64,000 bases of DNA from Albugo candida (Eukaryota), in contig JBDOQK010000060.1 of assembly GCA_040437565.1 (NCBI GenBank), positions 62,001-126,000 of the forward strand, read 5' to 3'. A program made the translations under genes and the position numbers. This document shows, piece after piece, positions 27,999 to 42,100 of this stretch (the first letter of the stretch is position 1; each line of letters opens with the position of its first letter). The notes below the pieces were generated by a model that searched no databases, was not told where the DNA came from, and saw nothing but the letters and a program-made list of their open reading frames with translations.

Positions 27999-29543
27999 GA
28001 CTGTTTGCAGGTAATCAAATAATGAGCTTTCGATCCATCGCACAGTCAGAGAATACGGAATTGACGATAGCGAAGTTTCTATCGATTAAAAAAATGTGTG
28101 AGAATTTGTGTATGCGTAACCAGGATACGACCATAACCCTCGTTTATTGTGGGATAGCGCCTGCGTGAGAAAGGGGCCGTATCGGAGGGATACCTACCCA
28201 TTGATACTTGGTGCATTCATCATCTTTACATCAAATTACGGACAACTATTGCGTTCTTTCCAAAAATTGAAGCTTAGTAACTGTCCACGTAGCCGGAAAG
28301 TTACATCAGTATCGTTTAGCCTCCAGGTTTTGTCCGAGAACCTTACCTAACGAGGTTAGTCTCCTCACTACTCGAAGAAAGTGGAGGAAAAGAAGCTTTG
28401 GAACAGCAATCACATCTGTTAAGTCGGCTAGAAGCATAAAAAGGCAGAGTCATTAGGGAGTTACAGTCCATTCGGGGACAGTTATGCTGTTATAAAATCA
28501 TCCAAGGTTCGAGGGGTATTGAGGATGACCATAAAAATGGAAAGGAACTTTGGCTTTACCCACAATATCGCTTGCTGAACATATGTGCTCTACTAACGTG
28601 CATTTCTGACATATCGCCATTATTCCTGTTAGTCTATGTGTATATTGTTGAAATCTGGAATTGGTTCGAATCAGATAGATAGGGTCTTTCTCGAAAATTA
28701 TGTTTGTATGGTAATTTTCAGCACTACTAGTGAGACTAACAATACTCCACCATGCGCATGTAGCCGGTAATTGCGCTAGTCGCTGCAACCATCCAGTGTG
28801 GTTGGTATGTATACGCTGTGAGTGAGTACACAAGTATTTCCGATAGTGGTCTTGAAAGAAGCATTCTGCAAATTCGATTTGTCATCTTAAACAAAAGCGG
28901 CGACAGTTGTGTTCTTCAACTAGTGACATAGTCGTAGAGAGCTTCTGGCACCTGCTACAATTTATATCCGCTCCTCGCTTTTTATTATCAAAAGTGCTAT
29001 ATGCTTCAATATGACTTGTACTTGACGAGAATGCTTCGTAAAAGCCTTCGGTATCAAGCCGAGCTTTAGCTTGTATAAAGACACAAGTTGATCTACCTTG
29101 ATTCCGACGACGGCGATGCTACCTGATCTGCCAGATCGTTCTTTTCACACGTAGAATAATAGAGGTAGTCAGCGTGAGGTGACGTTTCGCACCAATGTGC
29201 ATAACAAAACATTCCGAACCAGGACTCGTTGACTACATCGATAGACTATGGCTGATATCAATCAACTTTACAGTCCTTGTGTCGGTTCTTTAACTTAAAT
29301 TAGTAGCTTTGGATAAAAATGCCGTCAAAGCGAAAGAACCACACGTAAGAAAAGAAGAATGAATGCGTTTACGTGGCACAATAGTTTTCAATTGCAAGCA
29401 ATACCGTTAAACAGTGGCATAAACAAGGTATTGAGCCGACGACCATATGTCCACTTAAGGTATGTCAGACCTATATATTACTTATTTGATGATAAGCATG
29501 CGCTCTAAAGAAGTTGAACCCAACAGTGGACTAGTGAAAGAAT

Positions 29544-29615
29544 TGCGCATGCCCGGATTCGAACCGGGGATATCACGGCCACAACGTGAGGTACTGACCA
29601 CTATACTACATACGC
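29544..29615 (-). tRNA. trnH-GUG: tRNA-His(GUG), A73 discriminator, genomic G at position -1 (29616)
   Basis: GCGTATG TA GTAT AGTGGTCA GTAC C TCACG TTGTGGC CGTGA TATC CCCGG TTCGAAT CCGGG CATGCGC A forms a full cloverleaf. It is followed by ATTCTTT. Confidence 0.96.
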
Positions 29616-29616
29616 C

Positions 29617-29684
29617 AAGGGACGCCGGGTTTCGATCCCGGGTCCTTTCGACTAGCGAACGCCTTTCCGACAAGCTACATCCCT
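29617..29684 (-). ncRNA. tRNA-like element (tRNA-Ala-like body, truncated anticodon arm) fused directly upstream of tRNA-His
   Basis: AGGGATG TA GCTT GTCGGAA AGGC G TTCG CTAGT CGAA AGGAC CCGGG ATCGAAA CCCGG CGTCCCT T. Acceptor, D and T stems pair, while the anticodon arm has only 4 bp and a 5 nt loop. Confidence 0.85.
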
Positions 29685-29835
29685 TCACAGTAATCTTTGC
29701 TCAAAACGTATTATAATGAAAACATACTTAACCCCAGATAAATAAAAAAACTTATTTTGATTCGTCAAGACATTTGGTATCCGCCAATCGGATTGAGTAC
29801 AACCATTAAGTGGCTTACAAGCACTTCACCACCCA

Positions 29836-30729
29836 ATGCATCTGCTCCATTTCAATCGCTTCATACGCCCGTGTCGTTTCCATTCCACACTCCAAACAGC
29901 AGCCCCCATCTCTCCTGTTCTACTCTCTCCCTATCCTAATGGAAAGAAAAGAACGGGTTTATTAGCTGTTAAAATCGGAATGATTTCTGTGTGGGACTTT
30001 TACGGCGTCGCACACGGGTGCACAGTACTCCAAGTCGAAGAATGTCAAGTCACACAGGTCAAAACTAGCGATATCCACGGATTTGACGCTCTCCAATTGG
30101 GAGTCGGTTTGCGTAAGCCTCGAAATGTGGTCAAACCGCTTATGGGCCATCTCAAAAAAGCCGGAGTTGCTCCAAAACGGCAATTACAAGAGTTTCGCGT
30201 GTCGCAGGAAGGTGTCTTACCCGCTGGAACAACACTCAACGCAACCCACTTCGTTCCTGGGCAATTTGTCGATGTGTGTGGGATCAGGTACGCAAAGAAC
30301 CAGCGTAGGCTTAGAGACTAACTGTGTGCTTGAAGCAAAGGGAAGGGATTTCAAGGGGTTATGAAGCTCCATAATTTCTCAGGGCAACCAGCTTCCCACG
30401 GAAACTCGAAGACACATCGACATATGGGCTCTACGGGTCAATGTCAAGACCCAGGAAGAGTATTCAAGGGGAAAAAGATGCCTGGGCGTATGGGGAATAG
30501 ACGCGTCACGCGAGATAATCTTTGGATTGTGAAGATCGATACGATTCGAAATCTTCTCTATGTGAAAGGAAGCGTGCCGGGGAATAAAGGGAGTATCGTT
30601 CGTGTCACGGATGCTCGAAAAAAGACTCCACCGGTGCCTCTACCGTTCCCAACCTTTATCTCTCAGGAAGAACTTCCAGCAGAATTACTGGCGCCACATA
30701 GTTCTACGGATCCGTTCCATTATGACTAA
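29836..30729 (+). CDS. MRPL3: Mitochondrial ribosomal protein uL3m, 2 exons
   Basis: Presequence-like N-terminus, [57 protein letters not shown]. Intron ~30288-30335. Confidence 0.95.
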
Positions 30730-39616: not shown

Positions 39617-42100
39617 TCAAGCCGCGGCAATCTCAGAGCAATTACGTATCATGGAGACACCATGCATATAGTTTGATGCGCCTTCATTCAACTCGAAAAT
39701 AGAGGCTGACTTTCGTGTAGGTGAACGTTCCAGTGAGCATTCTTTTTTTGGAAGCATCGAATTGTCGCAACTGCTGGACCTATTGGACTCGTACTTAGCG
39801 GTATCCGAGCTCGTCTTTCCACTAATTCCAATTCGATATTGTTCTTGTATGGATACATACGCTTCTTCAGTATCGTATCCCAAGTTATAACACACAGTAT
39901 ACACTTCTTCCGCTTTCTGCCTGACAATTAAATTCCAGTGGCTCGTTATCACTTGACGCAACGAGACTTTGATGATCTCAAATATTTCCTGTCCTATACA
40001 TTCAAACTGATTCATGACGCGCACACACGTTGGCGAATTCCAAAACGAAATCGCACGTTCCGCGACTTGAAATTGTTGACTCGTCATACAACGCGCTAAA
40101 CGTTTCGCTAACGCTTTGTGTAAGTTGTCAAAGTCGATTTCTGATAAAACGTGTTCCATCAATTCTTCAATTTCTACAATAAAAATCATCTCTTTGCATG
40201 ACTTTCCAACGGGCCAGTATTTAAGCATCCCTCGCACAATGGTACCAAATAACTGATGATCTTTTGAGACATATTGTATCATACAGTACGCGAGCTGTTG
40301 ATGGTAAGAGACATAAGCGGGCGATAGATGCAGTGGAATCAACGCCTTTTCTAATAATCGAACATGCTCCTGCTTGATGGGACACGCAAAGCCATTCACA
40401 ATACTGCCAAGAATCTCCAATAATTCGGCGATCCCGTAAAACGTGTCGGACTCGTACAAAAACTCATAAAACGTGTTGGCGATTTCTTTCCGAATACAGG
40501 ACCGTCGATGCGTCAATTTGTAATATAATCGATGTAGCACACCTTTGAGAATCTGGCGTTCTTTAAGCGCCGGTGTTCGAAATAAACCAATCAGTTGTGA
40601 AATAAATCGCACGGTGAATATTTCCTTACGAAACGACTTTTCAAAATTTTCCACGCACTCGATTATTTTCAGCAAAAGATCGTAGCACGCGGTAAGAAAT
40701 CCCCAGTTTTGTTCCTCCACTGTGTAGTCCATACTCTTATCTGTATGTCCATGTAGTCCTCCAGAAGCGTCTCCCAAAGGAGCTTCGACCAAATTCGGTT
40801 GATCGACAAACACGTTATACGGCGCAAAATTTTGCACAGTTGGAAAGGAACGAAATAAATAATAACCCACTAAACGGACCAACTCTGAGTAAGCCTGAGG
40901 GTCTTCTAACAAAAACGGATACGACTCGCAGTACGAATTCAAATCGTACAAAGTTGAGAGTCGCTTTTCATTCAGCTGGAAACGTTCTAAAGGCGTTAAC
41001 TTTGAGTACCGTGGCACACAAAATGCAATTTTCTGACGGAAAAGAAGAAGCCGGTGATGTGATTTTGTGTCTTCTAGTGCTGGCAAGTCATCCCATATGT
41101 CTATGTCGTTCATCGCCAAACATTTCCTATCAGCGTCCAGCGGCATAGATGCAGAAATAAGGCTTCCCATCCAAAATTCTGCTTCTTCTTCATTCTTTGC
41201 CATGAAATACAAAGAGCGGTATCCCTGATATGATTTTAGTTATGTCGAGTTTATACAGAATGCACGTCGCACGTACCGTTTGTGAGATCTCAAAACAGTG
41301 TTGCCGCTTGAATCGGTTTACTTCAATCGCGTTTACTTGAGTATTCTACGCACATGTTAGAATAAATTGCACATCGCTACGTAAAACTTACCAGCAATGG
41401 AATTACGCCCCGAGGACATGCATCACTGGCTGCCTACAGAACGATCTGAGTCTCACTCAAATTAAGCTTGAGAACTTACATTTCCAGACACATAGTAAAA
41501 TAAACTTTGGCCTTTAAGGATCATGAGTCTTTTTTTCCAAACTTTAAAGTGACTTGTTTGTTTTACCAAAACTCCAGAGCGGGCTATCGGCGCTTGAAAA
41601 TCCACAATATATGAGCAATTGTTGCGTTCCGTTGATGAGGGTGATGCGAGAGGGATGATCAAGCTCATTTTTTTGGAAAGTAACGGATGATGTCCTCCCG
41701 TACAGCCGATATTGAAATCTAACTCATCATCAAAAAGTTCTGAATGTTCCTCCGAGGGAACATGGAACGAGTGTCGGAGAGACGTAGCGCTCCCGGTTGT
41801 ATTCTGGCGCCTCAAAGGCTGTAAAGTATCCTCATCGTGCGGTGATATTGTTAGTCGCTCTGATGTGAGGTTCTTTTTCTTCCTACTCCACCGTTTTTTT
41901 ATACGTGAGTCCGCATCAGAGTTTGCTTCGTGAGTTTCCTCGTCGTCTTCGCCTGTCTCTAATGAGGATGCGGATTGCGAGCTGGAATCGCATTCTGATT
42001 TGATAATTTTATCGGAGGGATCGGTGCGTTTAACCGCCTTATAAAAATTTCGAAAGAAACGCGACTCGCATGTTACTTTAGATGTATTAGGAGTCGTCAT
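39617..42100 (-). CDS. PP2A regulatory B' (B56) subunit with an N-terminal PH domain, 4 exons
   Basis: PH: RSGVLVKQTSHFKVWKKRLMILKGQSLFYY...PRGVIPL...CFEIS...LYFMAKNEEEAEFW. B56: ERQILKGVLHRLY, GIAELLEILGSIVNGFACPIKQEH, YHQQLAYC, FQVAERA. Confidence 0.9.

What the first reader, a model, noticed from the sequence alone, without database searches (positions are those of the whole stretch)
29544..29684. tRNA-like leader fused with zero spacer to G-1 of tRNA-His: possible RNase Z route to the His identity element
Seen (minus strand): a tRNA-like element (29684-29617) with intact 7-bp acceptor, D and T stems and A/B-box-like sequences. Its anticodon arm is shrunk to 4 bp plus 5 nt, and it has G3:C70 instead of the Ala G3:U70. 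Its discriminator (T, 29617) is followed immediately by G (29616) and then G+1 of a normal tRNA-His(GUG) with A73. Established: G-1 with a 5' phosphate is the main HisRS identity element and is normally added by Thg1 in eukaryotes. RNase Z cuts right after the discriminator, leaves a 5' phosphate on the downstream RNA, and recognises the acceptor/T-arm rather than the anticodon. Inference: a dicistronic Pol III transcript in which a non-decoding tRNA mimic guides RNase Z to release tRNA-His already carrying pG-1, bypassing Thg1 and perhaps blocking RNase P. The element keeps the parts RNase Z needs and has lost the decoding part. I know of no description of this for nuclear tRNA-His.
Basis: partly seen in the sequence, partly recalled or inferred. 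Interest (0 to 1): 0.9.

Follow-up and report, generated by a model that had tools for sequence, protein, structure and literature searches.

The report
Decayed tRNA-Ala abutting tRNA-His gene
In this oomycete a worn-out alanine tRNA gene lies directly against a histidine tRNA gene with a single G between them, an arrangement shared by related organisms that could give histidine tRNA its essential extra 5' G without the usual adding enzyme.

Summary
On the minus strand, 29684-29617 is a full-length tRNA-like element (Rfam tRNA 35.9 bits; anticodon arm cut to 4 bp + 5 nt). It is followed by one G (29616) and a normal tRNA-His(GTG) with A73 (29615-29544).

It is not an isolated oddity. It is a degenerate paralogue of a tRNA-Ala-G-tRNA-His unit.
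- The same genome holds a second His locus with an apparently intact tRNA-Ala(CGC), the same single G and a T5 terminator.
- A metagenome scan found 16 loci (10 distinct His sequences, unalignable flanks) with tRNA-Ala(AGC), exactly one G, then a closely related tRNA-His. G stands at -1 in 16 of 16, against 4 of 41 other tandem His genes.
- One of these loci (L068) has independently lost the Ala anticodon arm.

No terminator can fit between the two genes, so co-transcription is forced. A single cut after the upstream discriminator, the normal RNase Z site, would give both the mature upstream 3' end and pG-1-tRNA-His. This is inferred, not shown.

Not tested: which enzyme cuts, whether Thg1 is present, the RNA 5' ends, and expression of this locus.

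Weaknesses: the window copy lacks a nearby terminator, and between two strains its leader evolves about as fast as the flanks.

Seven literature searches found no description. I rate it a new variant of known kinds.

The parts
29617..29684 (-). tRNA-like leader: a degenerate tRNA-Ala, closest to the CGC-type paralogue of the same genome. Acceptor 5' strand 29684-29678; D arm 29675-29661; anticodon-arm remnant 29659-29647 (4 bp + 5-nt loop); variable region 29646-29642; T arm 29641-29625; acceptor 3' strand 29624-29618; discriminator U at 29617.
   Evidence: Rfam RF00005 35.9 bits, model positions 1-71, E 6.9e-06. Sequence read. Pair counts against 12 relatives. The sister locus carries an apparently intact Ala(CGC) (records 5 and 13).
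29616..29616 (-). Single G between the leader's discriminator and His +1: the genome-encoded candidate G-1.
   Evidence: Sequence. It belongs to the 73-nt contig 29544-29616 shared by all His copies of the genome (record 2). It is G in 16 of 16 related metagenomic loci.
29544..29615 (-). tRNA-His(GTG) with A73 and standard arms.
   Evidence: ARAGORN. Rfam 62.2 bits. Identical in the second locus and in strain X12. 59-69 of 72 positions identical to the His genes of the 16 related loci.
29350..29353 (-). First run of four or more T behind tRNA-His, 191 nt downstream: the nearest candidate Pol III terminator of this copy.
   Evidence: Script. By contrast, 14 of the 15 related loci with intact Ala have a T4-T5 run starting within +10. 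The sister locus has T5 directly behind His (record 3 loose end).

Best explanation
The locus is one of about two tRNA-His loci of an oomycete genome. It is a decayed copy of a conserved two-gene unit: tRNA-Ala, one G, tRNA-His.

The two genes are separated only by that G, so Pol III must transcribe them as one precursor. One endonucleolytic cut after the upstream discriminator is the ordinary RNase Z site, chosen by the acceptor and T arms. That cut would create both the 3' end of the upstream tRNA and a 5'-phosphorylated G-1 on tRNA-His. The His identity nucleotide would therefore be genome-encoded and released by junction cleavage. It would not be removed by RNase P and re-added by Thg1.

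In the window copy the upstream tRNA has lost decoding (5-nt loop) and alanine identity (G3:C70, U73). It still has all four helices. It plausibly survives as the processing handle, and perhaps as the A/B-box promoter, for the downstream tRNA-His.

Shown: the anatomy, the paralogy, and the conservation of spacing and of the G.
Inferred: co-transcription, the cut site, the enzyme, retention of G-1, and any function of the decayed leader.
For: (1) The anatomy is confirmed.

(2) Census within the same genome (run X1):
- G-1 + His (29544-29616) is a separate 73-nt contig at depth 324, against 115-124 for the flanks.
- It has exactly two upstream branches. One is the window leader (depth 114.8). 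The other (depth 152.2) has A73, C72 and U70, and continues into a D arm, a 5-bp anticodon stem and a 7-nt loop with anticodon CGC.
- So 2 of 2 upstream branches carry a tRNA or tRNA-like element abutting the same G. Strain X12 shows the same two branches.

(3) Metagenome scan for any T-loop 20-35 nt before a eukaryote-type His D arm:
- 100 stretches were returned, and 57 have a His anticodon region.
- The 16 whose His is closest to the window's (59-69 of 72 identical) all have the gap that means 'discriminator + 1 nt', and all have G there. They comprise 10 distinct His sequences and 12 distinct units.
- In the other 41, G stands at -1 in 4, and spacers range widely.
- The flanks of the 16 are unalignable. 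The first trailer base is T in 9 and C in 7.
- ARAGORN calls tRNA-Ala(agc) + tRNA-His(gtg) in 15 of the 16, and finds no other tRNA on these 1-2 kb contigs except a second Ala on L083.

(4) Two contigs of run X17 show the same Ala-type acceptor, G and His.

(5) Loss of the Ala anticodon arm has happened independently in L068. Its leader still scores 37.2 bits as tRNA, and its His is identical to that of L094.

(6) Pairing in the window leader, compared with the 12 relatives:
- 4 pairs changed on both sides and still pair (1:72, 13:22, 27:43, 50:64).
- 3 one-sided changes keep or create a pair (3:70, 12:23, 6:67).
- Only 31:39, inside the truncated hairpin, is lost.

(7) The Ala part is 48 of 73 identical to the relatives' consensus, against 71 of 73 for G-1 + His. 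His is identical to the sister copy. The His gene is therefore maintained while the Ala function is not.

(8) Established precedents:
- RNase Z at the 3' end of human mt-tRNA-His makes the 5' end of the abutting tRNA-Ser(AGY). A 1-nt leader is described there as unfavourable for RNase P (PMC12630138, passages).
- RNase Z separates plant tRNA-Gly from snoR43 (PMC3858429, passages).
- C. elegans keeps an encoded G-1 opposite A73 by an unknown nuclease (PMC4338351, passages).
Against: - No RNA 5' end, precursor or expression was seen for this organism.
- The enzyme is not identified. RNase P cutting one position early would give the same product.
- Thg1 presence or absence in oomycetes could not be tested.
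- The metagenome scan required an upstream T-loop, so it cannot reveal related His genes that lack an upstream tRNA. The 100 stretches may be a cap.
- The taxonomy of the metagenomic loci rests only on likeness of their His gene and architecture. No convincing protein gene lies on them.
- The window copy has no T>=4 run until +191. The other anticodon-less copy, L068, has none until +22. By contrast, 14 of 15 loci with intact Ala have one within +10. This fits decay of the whole unit.
- Between strains X1 and X12 the leader has 2 changes in 68 nt. One of them turns U6:G67 into U.U. The flanks have 15 substitutions plus 1 insertion in 310 nt. This gives no measurable constraint on the leader.
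- Two of the four 'compensatory' pairs (27:43, 50:64) are states that the leader seems to share with its intact CGC-type paralogue, so they need not postdate loss of function.
- The leader alone does not fold best as a cloverleaf.
Confidence: 0.55

Rival explanations
1. Decaying duplicate. The window locus is a pseudogenising copy of the Ala-His pair. The leader has no function. The single G is inherited baggage. tRNA-His is matured in the standard way: RNase P cuts at +1 and Thg1 adds G-1.
For: - No nearby terminator in the window copy (first T4 at +191).
- The same is true of the other anticodon-less copy, L068 (+22).
- The leader diverges between strains at 2 of 68, similar to the flanks.
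- An apparently intact sister locus exists that could supply all tRNA-His.
- The leader's MFE is not a cloverleaf.
Against: - His + G-1 is identical to the sister copy over 73 nt, while the Ala part is only 48 of 73 identical to relatives. Decay is therefore not uniform.
- No stem pair outside the truncated hairpin is broken, despite 12 substitutions in paired columns.
- G and the 1-nt spacing are invariant in 16 of 16 related loci whose flanks are unalignable, against G in 4 of 41 other tandem His genes. Standard maturation would not select for this.
Confidence: 0.2
2. The encoded G-1 is retained, but by RNase P cutting one position early, as in bacteria and as presumed for C. elegans. The upstream tRNA is merely a neighbour whose 3' end is made by the same cut.
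For: - G at -1 is conserved.
- There is precedent for an encoded G-1 opposite A73 in C. elegans with no upstream tRNA reported (PMC4338351, passages).
- RNase P and RNase Z both leave 5'-phosphate and 3'-OH (established knowledge, recalled).
Against: - G-1 cannot pair with A73, so the bacterial ruler does not apply (PMC4338351, passage).
- This reading does not explain why every His copy seen has a tRNA or tRNA-like element exactly one nt upstream (2 of 2 branches; 16 of 16, though that scan was biased).
- It does not explain why a non-decoding leader keeps its acceptor and T arms.
Confidence: 0.15
3. Promoter dependence. The upstream tRNA(-like) element is kept because its A and B boxes drive Pol III transcription of the pair, as in dimeric yeast tRNA genes. 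The junction G has no role in His identity.
For: - The leader keeps A-box-like and B-box-like sequence (alignment to the tRNA model).
- No terminator or spacer lies between the genes.
- A TATAAT-like hexamer lies 26-31 nt upstream of the leader.
Against: - tRNA-His has its own standard D and T arms (62.2 bits), and so presumably its own internal promoter.
- This reading does not predict an invariant G or invariant 1-nt spacing.
- It is compatible with, rather than exclusive of, the junction-cleavage reading.
Confidence: 0.1

Closest known systems
Nuclear tRNA-His genes of Caenorhabditis elegans with genome-encoded G-1 (Rao and Jackman 2015, PMC4338351; passages read)
   Same: A eukaryotic nuclear tRNA-His with G at -1 in the gene and A73, so G-1 cannot be kept by the bacterial G-1:C73 ruler. 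The paper asks which nuclease could keep it, and names other eukaryotes (Bigelowiella natans) with an encoded G-1 and no Thg1.
   Different: No upstream abutting tRNA is described there, and the mechanism is left open. Here every copy seen has a tRNA or tRNA-like element whose discriminator touches the G. Thg1 is absent from C. elegans but could not be tested here.
Human mitochondrial tRNA-His / tRNA-Ser(AGY) junction (PMC12630138; passages read)
   Same: Two abutting tRNAs. RNase Z cutting the 3' end of the upstream tRNA makes the mature 5' end of the downstream one, which is a poor RNase P substrate.
   Different: That case is organellar and polycistronic, and the downstream tRNA lacks a D arm. 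There His is the upstream partner and no identity nucleotide is at stake. Here the genes are nuclear, His is downstream, and the cut would deliver G-1.
Plant dicistronic tRNA-Gly-snoR43 genes (Kruszka et al. 2003, as described in PMC3858429; passages read)
   Same: A nuclear Pol III-type dicistron in which RNase Z cleavage behind a tRNA releases the downstream RNA.
   Different: The downstream RNA is a snoRNA, not a tRNA, and the upstream tRNA is functional.
Bacterial and organellar tRNA-His with encoded G-1 kept by RNase P (PMC4338351 introduction; PMC3590771 and PMC6097661 passages)
   Same: G-1 is in the gene and is co-transcribed.
   Different: Those cases depend on a G-1:C73 pair that shifts RNase P. 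Here position 73 is A.
tRNA-like processing elements: mascRNA/MEN-beta and plant mitochondrial t-elements (recalled; one passage each in PMC10275265, and PMC3858429)
   Same: A non-decoding tRNA-shaped RNA with a reduced anticodon arm that recruits tRNA end-processing enzymes to define the end of a neighbouring RNA.
   Different: Those elements define the ends of mRNAs or lncRNAs. The window leader does not match Rfam mascRNA-menRNA (not among matches up to E 10). It is clearly derived from tRNA-Ala.
Dimeric tRNA genes of yeasts (S. pombe Ser-Met(i), S. cerevisiae Arg-Asp; recalled, not looked up)
   Same: Two tRNAs co-transcribed from the upstream gene's promoter with a short spacer.
   Different: The spacers are recalled as 7-10 nt and are removed. 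No identity nucleotide is involved, and both partners decode.

Membership tests
Canonical decoding tRNA (Rfam RF00005), applied to the leader 29617-29684 | Score at or above the family's gathering score over the full model | tested here: met
   35.9 bits against 29, model positions 1-71. It was missed by the whole-window scans because of their filters.
Canonical decoding tRNA (Rfam RF00005), applied to the leader 29617-29684 | 5-bp anticodon stem with a 7-nt loop presenting an anticodon | tested here: not met
   4 bp + 5-nt loop. ARAGORN does not call it.
tRNA-Ala | G3:U70 identity pair and A73 | tested here: not met
   The leader has G3:C70 and U73. The 12 relatives have G:U at 3:70 and A73. 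The sister locus has U70 and A73.
Dicistronic (dimeric) Pol III tRNA gene | Two tRNA(-like) genes on one strand with no terminator between them | tested here: met
   The spacer is a single G. The same holds in 16 of 16 related loci.
Dicistronic (dimeric) Pol III tRNA gene | T-run terminator directly behind the second gene | tested here: not met
   In the window the first T>=4 run lies at +191. The feature is met within +10 in 14 of the 16 related loci and at the sister locus (T5).
Dicistronic (dimeric) Pol III tRNA gene | A precursor RNA spanning both genes | not testable with these tools
   Only contigs could be laid. The X17 RNA-library contigs span the junction, but they are 428 and 622 nt long and run past the terminator, so DNA or read-through cannot be excluded.
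Genome-encoded G-1 tRNA-His, bacterial type | G at -1 paired with C73 | tested here: not met
   G at 29616, but A73 at 29544.
Genome-encoded G-1 tRNA-His, C. elegans type | G at -1 in all nuclear His genes, with A73 | tested here: met
   The 73-nt contig 29544-29616 is shared by all laid His copies in X1. Both upstream branches start after the G.
Genome-encoded G-1 tRNA-His, C. elegans type | No Thg1 gene in the genome | not testable with these tools
   No genome is held. Figure 1 and the supplement of PMC4338351 could not be read.
Genome-encoded G-1 tRNA-His, C. elegans type | Mature tRNA carries G-1 | tested here: inconclusive
   In run X20 a short contig reads adapter, GGG, then starts at 29616. 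Another ends at 29544 followed by CCA and an A tail. The GGG looks like template switching, so the count of Gs is ambiguous. The organism is coded and may not be this one.
RNase Z-made 5' ends (human mt His/Ser(AGY); plant tRNA-snoRNA) | The upstream tRNA's discriminator directly abuts the first nucleotide kept in the downstream RNA | tested here: met
   29617 (discriminator) is followed by 29616 (candidate G-1). The same holds in all relatives.
RNase Z-made 5' ends (human mt His/Ser(AGY); plant tRNA-snoRNA) | Cleavage at that bond by RNase Z | not testable with these tools
   This needs enzyme assays or 5'-end sequencing.
mascRNA/MEN-beta tRNA-like RNAs (Rfam RF01684) | Match to the family model | tested here: not met
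   No match for the leader among hits up to E 10.

The most novel reading that the evidence does not exclude
Oomycetes make cytoplasmic tRNA-His only as the second half of a tRNA-Ala-tRNA-His dicistron. RNase Z, guided by the upstream tRNA, releases tRNA-His already carrying its genome-encoded, 5'-phosphorylated G-1. His maturation would then need neither RNase P nor Thg1. Because only the shape of the upstream partner matters for this, it can decay into a non-decoding tRNA-shaped guide, as in this window and independently in L068. This would answer, for one lineage, the open question of how a eukaryote keeps an encoded G-1 opposite A73.
Probability: 0.35. Interest if true: 0.85.

Novelty: new variant of a known kind. 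Interest (0 to 1): 0.7.

Why it matters
G-1 is the main identity mark of tRNA-His. Eukaryotes are thought to add it with Thg1. The exceptions that keep an encoded G-1 opposite A73 (C. elegans and others) have no known mechanism (PMC4338351).

A conserved tRNA-Ala-G-tRNA-His unit offers a concrete, testable mechanism that uses only standard enzymes: one cut at the junction matures two tRNAs and delivers the identity nucleotide.

It would also be a nuclear example of a tRNA gene kept, or allowed to decay into a tRNA-shaped handle, for processing its neighbour. That would be relevant to annotation of 'tRNA pseudogenes' next to tRNA genes.

Oomycetes include major crop pathogens, so a lineage-specific step in tRNA-His maturation is of basic interest for their biology.

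Tried and rejected
- Whole genome: none is held, so no Thg1/TLP search and no direct census. The census came from contigs of public runs instead.
I did not pursue Thg1 further.
- Initiator-tRNA origin of the leader: I considered this because of A1:U72, A54 and A60. I rejected it because A54 is shared by the Ala genes of all 12 relatives, and the anticodon stem and T arm match the same genome's Ala(CGC).
- L006 as a second kind of leader (G at -1, T-loop-like word upstream): rejected. Rfam finds no tRNA-like match upstream, and His there is followed at once by tRNA-Thr.
- Taxonomy of the metagenomic loci through protein genes: the ORFs of 90 aa or more look spurious.
- Thermodynamic folding gives no support. 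The leader's MFE is not the cloverleaf, and the z-score is -1.49.
- RNA evidence: the X17 contigs are long and run past the terminator, and the X20 5' end is ambiguous. Neither shows a precursor or the route to G-1.
- Other tandem classes in the scan serve only as controls: Phe-His (spacers 1, 6, 9, 10 or 12 nt), initiator-Met-His (5-8 nt), and Ala(CGC)-His inside a 60-tRNA array (5-6 nt). They have variable spacers and mostly non-G at -1.
- Literature: seven searches found no description of an Ala-His unit or of an RNase Z route to G-1. PMC3334698 is not held. Supplements and figures were not readable, so a list of Thg1-lacking eukaryotes that might include oomycetes could not be seen.

Full report
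**1.
On the minus strand the window reads, 5' to 3': a 68-nt element (29684-29617), one G (29616), and a 72-nt tRNA-His (29615-29544).
- ARAGORN finds this His(gtg) as the only tRNA in the 64 kb. Rfam scores it 62.2 bits.
- The upstream element matches the Rfam tRNA model from its first to its last position at 35.9 bits (gathering score 29, E 6.9e-06 for a 601-nt search of all families). Five nt stand in place of the nine central positions of the anticodon arm.
- Read directly, it has a 7-pair acceptor stem (A1:U72, G3:C70, U6:G67), a 4-pair D stem, a 4-bp/5-nt anticodon remnant, a 5-pair T stem and discriminator U.
- ARAGORN and the whole-window Rfam scans do not report it. No other tRNA-like match exists in the window.
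- Thermodynamic folding does not favour the cloverleaf for the element alone: -20.8 against -25.4 kcal/mol, z -1.49. The MFE keeps the acceptor and T arms.

**2. The organism is an oomycete.**
A B56 phosphatase subunit encoded at 39617-41212 has its best named relatives in oomycetes (Phytophthora, Peronospora, Pythium, Albugo, Saprolegnia and others). Identity is 89% to the nearest named entry and 49-60% to the rest. No whole genome is held.

**3. The same genome has a second His locus with an apparently intact tRNA-Ala.**
I laid the contigs of two DNA runs of the same organism label on 29400-29850.
- G-1 plus His (29544-29616) is a separate 73-nt contig at depth 324, against 115-124 for the unique flanks. 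It is therefore a repeat of about two to three copies, and all copies include the G.
- It has two downstream branches. One is the window's flank. The other reads, on the minus strand, a T5 run directly behind His.
- It has two upstream branches. One is the window's leader (depth 114.8).
- The other (depth 152.2) follows the leader's sequence back to 29650 with five differences. Three are placed by the output at 29617, 29618 and 29620. On the minus strand these give A73, C72 and U70, that is, the alanine identity features.
- This second branch then continues into sequence that reads as a D arm, a 5-bp anticodon stem and a 7-nt loop with anticodon CGC. Its first 10 or so nucleotides are not shown, and one D-stem position looks mismatched. 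I therefore call it apparently intact.
- The leader's remnant stem is the outer four pairs of that anticodon stem.
- The window's 'mimic' is therefore a decayed paralogue of a tRNA-Ala(CGC)-G-tRNA-His unit. Both of the two upstream branches seen in this genome put a tRNA or tRNA-like element one G away from His.
- Strain X12 shows the same two branches, plus a 5'-truncated His fragment.

**4. Relatives share the unit.**
I scanned the metagenome collection for any T-loop word 20-35 nt before the eukaryote-type His D arm. The scan returned 100 stretches, which is possibly a cap.
- 57 stretches have a His anticodon region.
- The 16 whose His gene is closest to the window's (59-69 of 72 identical) all show the same arrangement: tRNA-Ala(AGC) with G3:U70 and A73, exactly one G, then tRNA-His. 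They are mostly 1-2 kb soil contigs.
- They comprise 10 distinct His sequences and 12 distinct units. GC content ranges from 32 to 59% and the flanks are unalignable.
- ARAGORN calls Ala(agc) + His(gtg) in 15 of the 16, and finds no further tRNA on these contigs apart from a second Ala on L083. The pair is thus a discrete unit, not part of a dense array.
- G stands at -1 in 16 of 16. The base before Ala varies, and the first base after His is T in 9 and C in 7.
- Among the other 41 tandem His genes of the scan, G stands at -1 in 4, and spacers range widely.
- Two contigs of an RNA-library run (X17) show the same Ala-type acceptor, G and His.
- The His and Ala helices covary across the 13 aligned rows. 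97.6% of cells are paired, 11 pairs change on both sides, 0 of 500 shuffles reach this, and slid controls give 27-54% paired.
- That I call these loci oomycete rests on likeness to the window's His and to its sister locus. No protein gene on them could confirm it.

**5. What the arrangement implies.**
A single nucleotide cannot hold a Pol III terminator, so transcription started at the upstream gene must run into His (inference from the sequence).
- The upstream tRNA needs a cut after its discriminator before CCA addition. That bond is also the 5' side of the G.
- RNase Z cuts there and leaves a 5' phosphate on the downstream piece (established knowledge). A precedent is the abutting human mt-tRNA-His/tRNA-Ser(AGY) pair. 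The same paper calls a 1-nt leader unfavourable for RNase P (PMC12630138, passages).
- RNase Z also separates plant tRNA-Gly from snoR43 (PMC3858429, passages).
- Suppose instead that RNase P cut at +1 and Thg1 re-added G. Then neither the identity of the spacer nor its length of exactly one would be under selection, yet both are invariant.
- The G therefore most likely ends up as G-1 of the mature tRNA.
- Which enzyme cuts is not shown. RNase P cutting one position early would give the same ends. However, G-1 cannot pair with A73, and that route would not need an upstream tRNA.

**6. Is the decayed leader itself functional?**
For:
- Against the 12 relatives the leader has 12 substitutions in paired columns. 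Eight of them form four pairs changed on both sides that still pair. Three are one-sided changes that keep or create a pair. Only one pair is lost, inside the truncated hairpin.
- The Ala part is 48 of 73 identical to the relatives' consensus, while G-1 + His is 71 of 73 and identical to the sister copy.
- L068 has independently lost eight nt of the Ala anticodon arm. Its leader still scores 37.2 bits and its His is unchanged.

Against:
- Two of the four double changes (27:43, 50:64) are states that the leader appears to share with its intact CGC-type paralogue.
- Between strains X1 and X12 the leader has 2 changes in 68 nt: one in the loop, and one turning U6:G67 into the U.U seen in all relatives. 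The two flanks together have 15 substitutions and one insertion in 310 nt, and G-1 + His has none in 73. This gives no measurable constraint on the leader.
- The window copy has no T>=4 run until 191 nt behind His, and L068 has none until +22. By contrast, 14 of the 15 loci with intact Ala have one within +10.
- The two anticodon-less copies may thus be decaying as units, kept alike in His by selection or gene conversion.

I put the function of the leader itself at about even odds, and the junction-cleavage reading of the conserved unit somewhat higher.

**7. RNA evidence is thin.**
- The X17 contigs are 428 and 622 nt long and run past the terminator, so DNA or read-through cannot be excluded.
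- In X20, a small-RNA-type library of a coded organism, one contig ends at 29544 followed by CCA and an A tail. Another reads adapter, GGG, then starts at 29616. This is consistent with a mature His tRNA bearing an extra 5' G. It is ambiguous because the GGG looks like template switching, and it is silent on how the G got there.

**8. What is known.**
- Rao and Jackman (PMC4338351, passages) showed that C. elegans lacks Thg1 and encodes and keeps G-1 opposite A73. They left the nuclease open and noted other such eukaryotes.
- Reviews list three routes to G-1: RNase P retention, Thg1 addition and transcription initiation (PMC6471195 figure legend; PMC6097661 discussion).
- Seven full-text searches found no description of a tRNA-Ala-tRNA-His unit in oomycetes, and none of an RNase Z route to nuclear G-1.
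- The library lacks most subscription journals. Figure 1 and the supplement of PMC4338351, which list Thg1-lacking eukaryotes, could not be read.
- Thg1 status in oomycetes stays open.

**9. Verdict.**
It combines known pieces (encoded G-1, dicistronic tRNA genes, RNase Z-made 5' ends, tRNA-like processing handles) in a way I could not find described. I rate it a new variant of a known kind, interest 0.7.

Noticed in passing
L068:1636-1773 compared with L094:1083-1228: Two near-identical metagenomic Ala-G-His units. L068 lacks 8 nt of the Ala anticodon arm, and a T5 run behind His is interrupted. A long shared element lies upstream of the unit in L068 and downstream of it in L094, which suggests tandem repeats of about 1.5 kb.
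   Followed up: partly
alignment A1 columns 6 and 67 (12 metagenomic tRNA-Ala(AGC) rows); window 29623: All 12 related tRNA-Ala genes carry a U6.U67 mismatch in the acceptor stem. The window leader has U6:G67, and strain X12 has U.U again.
   Followed up: no
window 29617-29650 compared with the sister locus (records 5 and 13): The differences between the leader and its intact paralogue in the 3' part include tRNA positions 70, 72 and 73 (the Ala identity pair, the 1:72 pair and the discriminator). His + G-1 is identical, and the D arm differs at about half its positions. Divergence along the unit is strikingly uneven.
   Followed up: partly
window 29710-29715 (-): A TATAAT-like hexamer lies 26-31 nt upstream of the leader's first base, and a T7 run lies further upstream (29741-29747). 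No comparable conserved upstream motif is obvious in the 16 related loci.
   Followed up: no
L001:1-9500: A marine metagenome contig with 60 tRNA genes in 9.5 kb, nearly all on one strand with spacers of a few nt. It includes an Ala(CGC)-5 nt-His pair whose Ala T arm is identical to the window leader's T arm.
   Followed up: no
L023, L024, L036, L059, L060, L073, L085, L090, L098: A recurrent initiator-tRNA-Met-tRNA-His tandem with 5-8 nt spacers and T or C at -1, from another eukaryotic lineage.
   Followed up: no
L007:343-440: A tRNA-His with an acceptor stem like the oomycete type but with an intron-like insert after the anticodon. It sits inside a dense array of 9 tRNAs and has A at -1.
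   Followed up: no
run X12, branch at window 29595 (record 11): One strain holds an extra contig that matches only the 3' 52 nt of tRNA-His and then runs into unrelated sequence. This is a 5'-truncated His fragment absent from run X1.
   Followed up: no
window 17100-20765 (-): A long ORF for a multi-KH-domain-like protein is interrupted by a run of N. The window holds 900 N in all.
   Followed up: no
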